Source of the DNA: a virus
Lineage: Duplodnaviria; Heunggongvirae; Uroviricota; Caudoviricetes
IMG/VR virus record: IMGVR_UViG_2724679293_000007
Coordinates: 32,001 to 96,000 of that record
Length of the DNA: 64,000 nt
Direction: 5' to 3' (one strand)
A program made the position numbers and the translations under genes. The notes beneath the pieces are model-generated. The model was not told where the DNA came from. It saw only the letters and a program-made list of their open reading frames with translations, and searched no databases. Positions 60,842-60,907 of this stretch are shown here, piece by piece. Within the stretch, counting starts at the first letter, position 1; each line of letters opens with the position of its first letter.

Positions 60842-60907
60842 ATTGCTCTAATAATTCCATATTTTTAAAACGTGATGTACACTCATCACGTTTTTTATTA
60901 GAGCAAT
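60842..60907. promoter_or_regulatory. Convergent pair of C1-operator boxes flanking a perfect hairpin terminator
   Basis: attgctctaataattcc (60842..60858, +); stem acgtgatg-tacact-catcacgt plus T run (60867..60895); attgctctaataaaaaa on the - strand (60891..60907). Confidence 0.55.

What the first reader, a model, noticed from the sequence alone, without database searches (positions are those of the whole stretch)
60842..60907. Two convergent C1-operator boxes flanking a perfect terminator hairpin
An operator on the + strand and one on the - strand bracket an 8-bp perfect stem with a T tract, in the gap between two co-directional genes. This geometry could allow repressor looping or roadblock control of read-through into the downstream gene at 61142.
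Basis: partly seen in the sequence, partly recalled or inferred. Interest (0 to 1): 0.4.

Follow-up and report, generated by a model that had tools for sequence, protein, structure and literature searches.

The report
Known P1 operator pair Op86a/b
The two repressor-binding boxes and the hairpin between them are real, but they are the operator pair already annotated in phage P1 (OpmgRa/OpmgRb, formerly Op86a/b) at the promoter of the head-completion gene pmgR, overlapping the terminator of the preceding operon, so the finding is ordinary.

Summary
Exact ATTGCTCTAATAA boxes lie at 60842-60854 (+) and 60895-60907 (-). They bracket an 11-bp hairpin (8-bp core, dG -13.4 kcal/mol) followed by six T.

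The window is a P1-like phage, 98-99% identical to P1 and P7. The P1 GenBank record annotates these sites as C1 operators OpmgRa and OpmgRb (former Op86a/b), "controls expression of pmgR and pmgS", with a predicted sigma-70 promoter PpmgR between them. P7 annotates them as Op(sht[a]) and Op(sht[b]).

The downstream gene is pmgR at 60922, not the gene at 61142 (pmgS).

My reading is a compact terminator/promoter/operator module:
- The hairpin ends the rightward pmgL/pmgN-pmgQ unit.
- PpmgR fires from inside the hairpin, so its RNA lacks the 5' arm and escapes termination.
- C1 on the two boxes covers the -35 side and the start-site side.

Comparative support:
- Both boxes are exact in 117 of 118 relatives.
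- Two stem pairs changed on both sides in the D6/JK004 lineage.
- Distant Citrobacter and Pantoea P1-like plasmids have different operator sequences but keep a convergent pair before pmgR, without a hairpin.

Looping and roadblock are untested and not needed. The finding is already known and of low interest.

The parts
60139..60840 (+). pmgQ (hdmD in P7), the last gene of the upstream rightward unit. Its stop codon TAA is at 60838-60840, one base before box a.
   Evidence: ORF list; P1 and P7 annotation.
60842..60858 (+). C1 operator OpmgRa (former Op86a), ATTGCTCTAATAATTCC.
   Evidence: Sequence; annotated as a protein_bind site for 'phage repressor C1' in AF234172 at 82152-82168 and in P7. 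The 13-mer is exact in 117 of 118 relatives retrieved through the pmgR start.
60843..60871 (+). Promoter PpmgR as predicted in the P1 record: -35 TTGCTC (60843-60848), 17-nt spacer, -10 TAAAAC (60866-60871). The -10 overlaps the first bases of the hairpin's 5' arm.
   Evidence: P1 annotation. The same TTGCTC-N17-TAAAAC module, with an identical ATTTTTAAAAC, recurs at Op88/P2pmgT at 62985-63013. Rough PWM score 4.0.
60855..60883 (+). Alternative promoter candidate: -35 TTCCAT (60855-60860), 17-nt spacer, -10 TACACT (60878-60883), which is the hairpin loop.
   Evidence: Rough PWM score 5.2, the best in the intergenic region. In relatives the loop hexamer is TATCAT, with scores 9.2 (JK004) and 7.4 (Newport). 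Inference only; there are no start-site data.
60867..60896 (+). Intrinsic-terminator-like hairpin AAAACGTGATG-TACACT-CATCACGTTTT plus T tract (60891-60896). Proposed terminator of the pmgL/pmgN-pmgQ unit.
   Evidence: dG -13.4 kcal/mol, z = -6.1. Two stem pairs changed on both sides in the D6/JK004-type lineage. D6-type hairpins fold at -14.0 kcal/mol.
60891..60907 (-). C1 operator OpmgRb (former Op86b), ATTGCTCTAATAAAAAA on the - strand. Its A/T tail is the terminator's T tract.
   Evidence: Sequence; annotated in AF234172 at 82201-82217 and in P7. Exact in 117 of 118 relatives.
60908..60921 (+). Leader of pmgR. The linker 60908-60913 varies most among relatives (four of its six columns are highly polymorphic), followed by a Shine-Dalgarno sequence AAGGTG at 60912-60917.
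   Evidence: Per-column variation; haplotype list.
60922..61140 (+). pmgR (shtA in P7), 72 aa. It is essential, and its deletion leaves heads and tails unjoined.
   Evidence: Gonzales et al. 2022, PMC9024508.
61142..62404 (+). pmgS (shtB in P7), 420 aa, the second gene of the operon.
62424..62453 (+). Strong terminator-like hairpin that ends the pmgR-pmgS unit before pap.
   Evidence: Terminator scan: 11 pairs, 6 of them G-C, then TTTTTTT. dG -18.6 kcal/mol.

Best explanation
This is the known C1 operator pair OpmgRa/OpmgRb (Op86a/b) of a P1-like phage. It is part of a compact terminator/promoter/operator module between pmgQ and pmgR.

1. The hairpin plus T tract (60867-60896) acts on RNA made from upstream. 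It ends the rightward pmgL/pmgN-pmgQ unit 27 nt after the pmgQ stop codon.
2. The sigma-70 promoter PpmgR lies inside the same 66 bp. Its -10 is either TAAAAC at the foot of the 5' arm (the GenBank prediction) or TACACT in the loop (my rough scoring).
3. In both cases transcription starts at or after the loop. PpmgR RNA therefore lacks the 5' arm, cannot form the terminator, and runs on into pmgR-pmgS.
4. In a lysogen, one C1 molecule on box a covers the -35 side and one on box b covers the start-site and early transcribed side, which shuts the promoter. When C1 is inactivated, pmgR-pmgS is expressed.

Shown here: the sequence features, identity with the annotated P1 and P7 sites, conservation of the boxes, the two stem pairs changed on both sides, and conservation of the convergent-pair geometry in distant relatives.

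Inferred: actual termination, the start site, and C1 occupancy of both boxes.
For: Identity with the annotated sites:
- The window is 98.4% identical to P1 and 98.6% to P7 across this stretch.
- AF234172 annotates OpmgRa (note: 'controls expression of pmgR and pmgS'), PpmgR and OpmgRb at the homologous bases. P7 annotates Op(sht[a]) and Op(sht[b]).

Selection on the boxes:
- Among 118 IMG/VR relatives retrieved through the pmgR start codon region, and so not selected on the boxes, 117 have an exact box a and 117 an exact box b. Most columns of the short stretch just after box b vary widely.

Hairpin:
- dG -13.4 kcal/mol, z = -6.1. RNAs starting at 60878 or 60890 show no significant structure (z = 0.3-0.7).
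- Between the P1-type and the D6/JK004-type, G-C became A-U and A-U became G-C at two stem pairs. Stem stability, loop length and the 40-nt box spacing are kept.

Upstream transcription:
- LPpmgL, P1/P2pmgL and PpmgN all point rightward into this hairpin.

Distant relatives:
- Citrobacter and Pantoea P1-like plasmids carry C1 homologues only 27-28% identical to P1 C1.
- They have their own dispersed asymmetric boxes: 13 sites against about 1 expected, and 10 sites against about 0.5.
- Each keeps a convergent pair directly upstream of its pmgR homologue, and the best -10-like hexamer lies between the boxes.
Against: - No experimental start-site, 3'-end or C1-binding data for this site could be found in the held literature. 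The P1 genome paper (PMC523184) is not held.
- PpmgR is only 'predicted' in the record. Both promoter candidates score weakly on a rough PWM: 4.0 and 5.2, reached by about 1.3% and 0.7% of window positions.
- The tool's terminator scan did not call the hairpin.
- The stem has only four G-C pairs, and four of the six T can pair with the upstream A run, so termination may be partial.
- The two both-sided stem changes come from one lineage split. A palindromic protein-binding site would show the same pattern.
- The excess of G-U-preserving single changes on the + strand (8 against 3 variant types) is not significant (p = 0.11).
- The Citrobacter and Pantoea sites have no hairpin, so the terminator is not an obligatory part of the module.
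Confidence: 0.8

Rival explanations
1. The two C1 molecules act mainly on transcription arriving from upstream, either as a roadblock or by looping out and stabilising the terminator. On this view they control read-through into pmgR/pmgS rather than a local promoter.
For: - The boxes bracket the terminator, and box b sits immediately at and after the T tract.
- Both local promoter candidates are weak by PWM.
- pmgR/pmgS have no late-promoter -22 motif of their own nearby, so late expression could depend on read-through.
- From my own knowledge, not checked here: C1-mediated looping has been reported at the c1 operators.
Against: - Every annotated rightward promoter upstream is itself C1-controlled or late, so little transcription arrives while C1 is active.
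- The centre-to-centre distance is 49 bp, about 4.7 helical turns, which I judge too short for an unaided loop.
- The Citrobacter and Pantoea relatives keep the convergent pair with only a 20-nt gap and no terminator. A -10-like hexamer lies between the boxes, the geometry of promoter occlusion.
- The P1 and P7 records assign the boxes to promoter control.
Confidence: 0.1
2. The inner palindrome is not an RNA terminator. It is a DNA site for a dimeric protein, or a neutral palindrome carried along, and only the operators and promoter matter.
For: - Symmetric changes in a palindromic binding site look the same as compensatory stem changes.
- The G-U bias expected for an RNA stem on the + strand is not significant.
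- The scan tool did not list the hairpin as a terminator.
- Distant relatives lack it.
Against: - The stem is followed directly by six T on the + strand only. On the - strand it is followed by UUUU and then A.
- It lies 27 nt after the stop codon of a co-directional operon.
- Stability is kept at -13.4 to -14.0 kcal/mol in both sequence types.
- No known P1 factor has such a site. The late-promoter -22 motif differs.
Confidence: 0.07
3. Only one of the two boxes is functional and the other is a redundant leftover. Box a over the -35 alone would suffice, as at Op88/P2pmgT.
For: - Most P1 operators are single. Op88, with the same TTGCTC-N17-TAAAAC module, has no partner box.
Against: - Both boxes are equally invariant, each exact in 117 of 118 relatives, next to a short stretch that varies widely among relatives.
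- The paired, convergent arrangement persists across three different operator sequences.
Confidence: 0.05

Closest known systems
Phage P1 operators OpmgRa and OpmgRb (former Op86a/Op86b) with predicted promoter PpmgR, GenBank AF234172 / NC_005856
   Same: Same locus, same 17-mers, same spacing and same flanking genes pmgQ, pmgR and pmgS. The 1.2 kb around it is 98.4% identical.
   Different: Only point differences in the flanks, for example CTATAAGG here against CTACAAGG in P1 just after box b. In the 6.2-kb stretch fetched, the record annotates no terminators at all, not even the strong hairpin after pmgS.
Phage P7 operators Op(sht[a]) and Op(sht[b]), GenBank AF503408
   Same: Homologous positions, annotated as regulating the sht operon (shtA = pmgR, shtB = pmgS). 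98.6% identity.
   Different: Only the naming differs. [quoted passage not shown]
Bivalent C1 operators of P1, for example Oc1ab (Op99a/b) at c1 and the site at window 47441-47468, which I believe is Op72 at ban (from memory, not checked)
   Same: Two C1 boxes in inverted, convergent orientation at one promoter.
   Different: In bivalent operators the two 17-mers overlap through their A/T tails: 11 bp centre to centre at Oc1ab and 15 bp at 47441/47456. Here they are 49 bp apart with a hairpin between them, and the record calls each 'monovalent'.
P1 operator OpmgT (Op88) with promoter P2pmgT, window 62984-63013
   Same: Same operator 13-mer followed at the same offset by an identical ATTTTTAAAAC. 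This gives the same predicted promoter TTGCTC-N17-TAAAAC.
   Different: No partner box and no terminator nested in it. A second, stronger predicted promoter, P1pmgT, follows.
Convergent box pairs upstream of the pmgR homologues in the Citrobacter freundii plasmid pRHBSTW-00697_3 and a Pantoea sp. CCBC3-3-1 plasmid
   Same: Same genomic position (pmgQ-like gene, then the pair, then pmgR-like and pmgS-like genes). Same convergent orientation, with a -10-like hexamer between the boxes. The boxes belong to a dispersed, mostly single-copy asymmetric family, as C1 operators do.
   Different: Different box sequences (AGACMATACTAATT and AAGATACTAAAATA). The C1 homologues are only 27-28% identical to P1 C1. 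The gap is 20 nt instead of 40, and there is no inner hairpin.

Membership tests
C1-controlled operator of P1-like phages | Match to the asymmetric 17-bp consensus ATTGCTCTAATAAATTT | tested here: met
   Both 17-mers match 14 of 17 positions, and the first 13 bases are exact. Consensus as quoted in PMC8546580. The motif is enriched in the window: 11 copies against 2.1 expected.
C1-controlled operator of P1-like phages | Positional homology with operators annotated in reference genomes | tested here: met
   Homologous to OpmgRa/OpmgRb of AF234172 and to Op(sht[a])/Op(sht[b]) of AF503408.
C1-controlled operator of P1-like phages | Overlaps or abuts a promoter that it represses | tested here: inconclusive
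   A promoter is only predicted: the GenBank PpmgR and an alternative with the loop as -10. Both score weakly, and there are no start-site data.
C1-controlled operator of P1-like phages | Bound by C1 protein, with affinity enhanced by Lxc/Bof | not testable with these tools
   Needs EMSA or footprinting. No binding data for Op86 were found in the held literature. The c1 gene lies outside this window, since P1 coordinate 93231-94082 maps beyond window base 64000.
Bivalent C1 operator (overlapping inverted 17-mers) | The two 17-mers overlap to form one incomplete palindrome | tested here: not met
   32 bases separate the two 17-mers (60858 to 60891). The P1 record calls each site 'monovalent'. 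Compare Oc1ab and 47441/47456.
Intrinsic (Rho-independent) terminator | Stable G+C-containing stem-loop immediately followed by a U tract on the transcribed strand | tested here: met
   An 11-bp stem with four G-C pairs, a 6-nt loop and six T. dG -13.4 kcal/mol, z = -6.1. On the - strand only UUUU and then A follow. The tool's scan missed it, I infer because stem extension uses up the T run.
Intrinsic (Rho-independent) terminator | Lies just downstream of a co-directional transcription unit | tested here: met
   It starts 27 nt after the pmgQ stop codon. Rightward promoters LPpmgL, P1/P2pmgL and PpmgN lie upstream.
Intrinsic (Rho-independent) terminator | Stem maintained by compensatory change in relatives | tested here: met
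   Two pairs changed on both sides (G-C to A-U, and A-U to G-C). 97% of helix cells are paired, against 39-54% for slid controls. This rests on a single lineage split.
Intrinsic (Rho-independent) terminator | RNA 3' ends and measurable termination at the site | not testable with these tools
   Needs Term-seq, 3'-RACE or in vitro transcription.
Repressor loop or transcriptional roadblock | Two bound repressors interact, or a bound repressor stops an elongating polymerase from upstream | not testable with these tools
   Only the geometry can be read: 49 bp centre to centre and convergent orientation. In relatives without a terminator the pair is kept with a 20-nt gap, which fits occlusion better.

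The most novel reading that the evidence does not exclude
The convergent operator pair in front of pmgR is an ancient module that does not depend on operator sequence. It persists in P1-like plasmids whose C1 homologues and operator sequences have diverged (three operator 'dialects').

Only in the P1/D6/JK004 clade has an intrinsic terminator been nested inside it. There the terminator loop would be the promoter's true -10 (TACACT or TATCAT), and the U tract is the tail of operator b.

That would mean the -10 of PpmgR in the P1 reference annotation is misplaced by 12 bp. It would also make the site a clean natural example of one 66-bp stretch that ends one operon, starts the next, and is clamped by repressor on both sides.
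Probability: 0.35. Interest if true: 0.3.

Novelty: already known. Interest (0 to 1): 0.15.

Why it matters
It matters little beyond P1 biology.

The site controls pmgR, a gene essential for joining P1 heads and tails, and pmgS. It shows how tightly P1 packs regulatory signals. The stop codon, an operator, a promoter, a terminator and a second operator fit into 70 bp. The terminator's T tract doubles as the operator's tail, and the promoter fires from inside the terminator.

The comparative result is a small addition. The convergent pair is kept across three operator sequences, which suggests that two-sided clamping of this particular promoter is selected. Whether the reference annotation places the -10 correctly remains open. 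Both points are cheap to test and could refine P1 annotation and P1-based vectors.

Tried and rejected
1. Literature. The P1 genome paper (PMC523184, DOI 10.1128/JB.186.21.7032-7068.2004) is not held. Full-text searches for Op86, OpmgR, Op88 and similar terms, and for C1 looping, returned nothing on this site. I could not check whether that paper already lists the hairpin as a terminator or reports C1 binding to Op86.

2. A genome-contig scan with a PmgS alignment gave only two near-identical E. coli contigs. Distant relatives had to come from tblastn against the plasmid and phage collections.

3. Rfam has no family match in 60600-61200, so this is not a known structured RNA.

4. I considered a P1 late promoter at this site. 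The -22 motif of LPpmgL/LP26 (TAGTCATTT / AAATGACTA) has no counterpart near 60842-60907, so I rejected it.

5. PWM ranking of the two -10 candidates uses a matrix built from textbook base frequencies that I recalled. The loop candidate ranks first in P1, JK004, Newport and Citrobacter. However, the P1 scores (5.2 against 4.0) are both weak. The annotated TTGCTC-N17-TAAAAC module recurs at Op88. This is unresolved.

6. I tested whether single stem changes prefer G-U on the + strand RNA. The count is 8 against 3 variant types (p = 0.11), which is a trend only.

7. A bidirectional terminator is unlikely. The - strand has no U tract beyond four U, and no leftward genes lie downstream.

8. The first IMG/VR scan required both boxes, so it could say nothing about box conservation. 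I repeated it anchored on the pmgR start.

Full report
**What is in the sequence**

Box a (ATTGCTCTAATAA) lies at 60842-60854 on the + strand, and the identical 13-mer lies at 60895-60907 on the - strand. Extended to 17 bases they read ATTGCTCTAATAATTCC and ATTGCTCTAATAAAAAA. Each matches 14 of 17 positions of the asymmetric C1 operator consensus ATTGCTCTAATAAATTT (quoted in PMC8546580).

Between the boxes lies a hairpin:
- 5' arm AAAACGTGATG (60867-60877)
- loop TACACT (60878-60883)
- 3' arm CATCACGTTTT (60884-60894)
- a run of six T at 60891-60896

The hairpin folds at -13.4 kcal/mol, against -2.6 +/- 1.8 for shuffles (z = -6.1). The motif with up to two mismatches occurs 11 times in the window against 2.1 expected.

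The tool's terminator scan did not list the hairpin. I infer that it extends the stem into the T run and then finds too few T in the tail.

**Where it is**

The window is a P1-like phage. The 1.2 kb around the site is 99.0% identical to RCS47, 98.6% to P7 and 98.4% to P1.

The P1 record AF234172 annotates the homologous bases as follows:
- [quoted passage not shown]
- "predicted sigma 70 promoter PpmgR", with -35 TTGCTC (window 60843-60848) and -10 TAAAAC (window 60866-60871)
- "OpmgRb; corresponds to former Op86b"

P7 annotates the same sites as Op(sht[a]) and Op(sht[b]), regulating the sht operon. The finding is therefore an already named operator pair.

The upstream gene is pmgQ, with its stop codon at 60838-60840, one base before box a. 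The downstream gene is pmgR (60922-61140, 72 aa, 100% identical to P1 PmgR). pmgR is essential, and its deletion yields unjoined heads and tails (PMC9024508).

**Are the parts under selection?**

A first IMG/VR scan that required both boxes showed that this convergent pair occurs only at this locus, always with a 40- or 41-nt gap.

I then made a second scan anchored on the pmgR start, so that the boxes were not part of the selection. It returned 118 usable relatives. Box a is exact in 117 and box b is exact in 117. Four of the first six columns after box b are highly polymorphic. That contrast argues for purifying selection on both boxes.

In the more distant Cronobacter phage JK004 and the Salmonella Newport plasmid pCVMN1543, both boxes and the 40-nt gap are kept. 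(The PmgR match is 81% identical in JK004 at the protein level, and the Newport plasmid matches at 73% DNA identity.) The stem sequence differs, AACATGGTG/CACCATGTT. Two pairs changed on both sides, G-C to A-U and A-U to G-C, and stability is kept at -14.0 kcal/mol.

In the covariation table, 97% of hairpin cells are paired, against 39-54% when partners are slid. No shuffle reached the observed covariation score. This is one lineage split, so the evidence is real but thin. Single stem changes lean towards G-U on the + strand RNA (8 variant types against 3), but not significantly (p = 0.11).

**What transcription meets the hairpin**

The P1 record places three kinds of promoter upstream, all pointing rightward through pmgL...pmgQ:
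- the late promoter LPpmgL
- sigma-70 promoters P1/P2pmgL, under operator O26/Op82
- PpmgN, under Oppp/Op83

The hairpin starts 27 nt after the pmgQ stop codon and carries its T tract on the + strand only. It is therefore best read as the intrinsic terminator of that unit. A second, stronger terminator-like hairpin (62424-62453, -18.6 kcal/mol) closes pmgR-pmgS before pap.

**Where the promoter is**

There are two candidates.
- The annotated one, TTGCTC-N17-TAAAAC, recurs with an identical ATTTTTAAAAC at Op88/P2pmgT. That speaks for it.
- A rough PWM, built from textbook base frequencies that I recalled, ranks TTCCAT-N17-TACACT first. Its -10 is the hairpin loop. It scores 5.2 against 4.0 for the annotated candidate.

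In relatives, the loop hexamer TATCAT gives the best-scoring site, 9.2 in JK004 and 7.4 in the Newport plasmid. The annotated -10 decays there to TGAAGC and TAAAGC. Both P1 scores are weak: about 0.7% and 1.3% of window positions score as high. I leave this open.

The key consequence does not depend on the choice. Either -10 puts the start at or after the loop. PpmgR RNA then lacks the 5' arm and is unstructured (z = 0.3-0.7), so it escapes the terminator it is born in. Box a then covers the -35 side, and box b covers roughly +1 to +30. The A/T tail of box b is the terminator's T tract.

**Distant relatives**

A Citrobacter freundii plasmid and a Pantoea plasmid carry the same pmgQ-pmgR-pmgS-like gene order.
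- Their C1 homologues lie next to the terminase gene, as c1 lies next to pacB in P1. They are 27% and 28% identical to P1 C1.
- Each has its own dispersed, mostly single-copy asymmetric box: AGACMATACTAATT with 13 sites against about 1 expected, and AAGATACTAAAATA with 10 sites against about 0.5.
- Each has exactly one close convergent pair, directly upstream of its pmgR homologue. The gap is 20 nt, the best -10-like hexamer lies between the boxes, and there is no hairpin.

The convergent pair at this promoter is therefore older than the P1 operator sequence. The nested terminator appears to be an addition of the P1/D6/JK004 clade. This geometry, with a -10 between two close boxes, is that of promoter occlusion. 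It counts against the idea that the pair exists to manage a terminator.

The operator and terminator identifications hold. Looping or roadblock control of read-through is untested and not needed.
- Upstream promoters are themselves C1-controlled or late, so little transcription arrives while C1 is bound.
- The boxes are 49 bp apart centre to centre, which I judge too short for an unaided loop.

**Limits**

- There are no binding, start-site or 3'-end data for this site. I could not read the P1 genome paper to see whether the hairpin is already listed as a terminator.
- The c1 gene lies outside the window.
- Rfam has no match, and no late-promoter motif is present.

**Scores**

Novelty: already known. 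Interest: 0.15.

The most novel reading not excluded is that the terminator loop is the true -10, so the reference annotation is off by 12 bp, within an ancient two-sided clamp module. I give it probability 0.35, with interest of about 0.3 if true.

Noticed in passing
window 62424-62453 (+): A strong terminator-like hairpin (11-bp stem, six G-C pairs, then TTTTTTT; -18.6 kcal/mol) lies between pmgS and pap. It is not annotated in the P1 record stretch I fetched.
   Followed up: partly
window 62984-63013 (+) compared with 60842-60871 (+): Op88 and Op86a share more than the operator. At the same offset after the box both carry an identical ATTTTTAAAAC, which gives the same predicted promoter TTGCTC-N17-TAAAAC. 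This looks like a duplicated operator-promoter cassette.
   Followed up: partly
window 63033-63055 (-): A terminator-like hairpin on the minus strand (ACATGCCGCGTCTTGCGGCATGT followed by a T run) sits in the leader just after Op88/PpmgT. All annotated neighbouring genes run rightward, so what it would terminate is unclear.
   Followed up: no
window 60908-60913: The bases between box b and the pmgR Shine-Dalgarno sequence vary widely among otherwise near-identical P1-like contigs (CTACA, CTATA, CCATA, TTACA, ATACA, CCAAA, CTGCA). The operator beside them is invariant.
   Followed up: partly
window 47441-47468: Two overlapping convergent C1 boxes (ATTGCTCTAATAAATTT on +, ATTACACTAATAAATTT on -) form one incomplete palindrome. 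This is the 'bivalent' operator type. From memory it is Op72 at ban; I did not check that.
   Followed up: no
window 58125-58141 (-): The site homologous to the annotated operator Oppp/Op83 reads TATGCACTAATTAATTT. It is too diverged for the 13-mer search with two mismatches to find, so motif counts understate the number of operators.
   Followed up: no
L136+L137 (NZ_CP056338.1) and L139+L140 (NZ_CP034366.1): The Citrobacter and Pantoea P1-like plasmids each have their own dispersed asymmetric operator-like motif (AGACMATACTAATT and AAGATACTAAAATA). Their C1 homologues are 27-28% identical to P1 C1. All three motifs, P1's included, share a CTAA core.
   Followed up: partly
GenBank MH160767.1 / NC_050153.1 at 74630-74845 (hits H135, H136): In phage vB_EcoM-Ro157c2YLVW, the feature listed under the pmgR match is 'L: RNA-directed RNA polymerase L'. 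This is evidently a misannotation.
   Followed up: no
PLSDB plasmid collection: The 201-bp stretch around the site is present in 686 plasmid records, mostly E. coli plus Salmonella, Klebsiella, Shigella and Cronobacter. One of them, CP057937.1, is 100% identical to the window over it.
   Followed up: no
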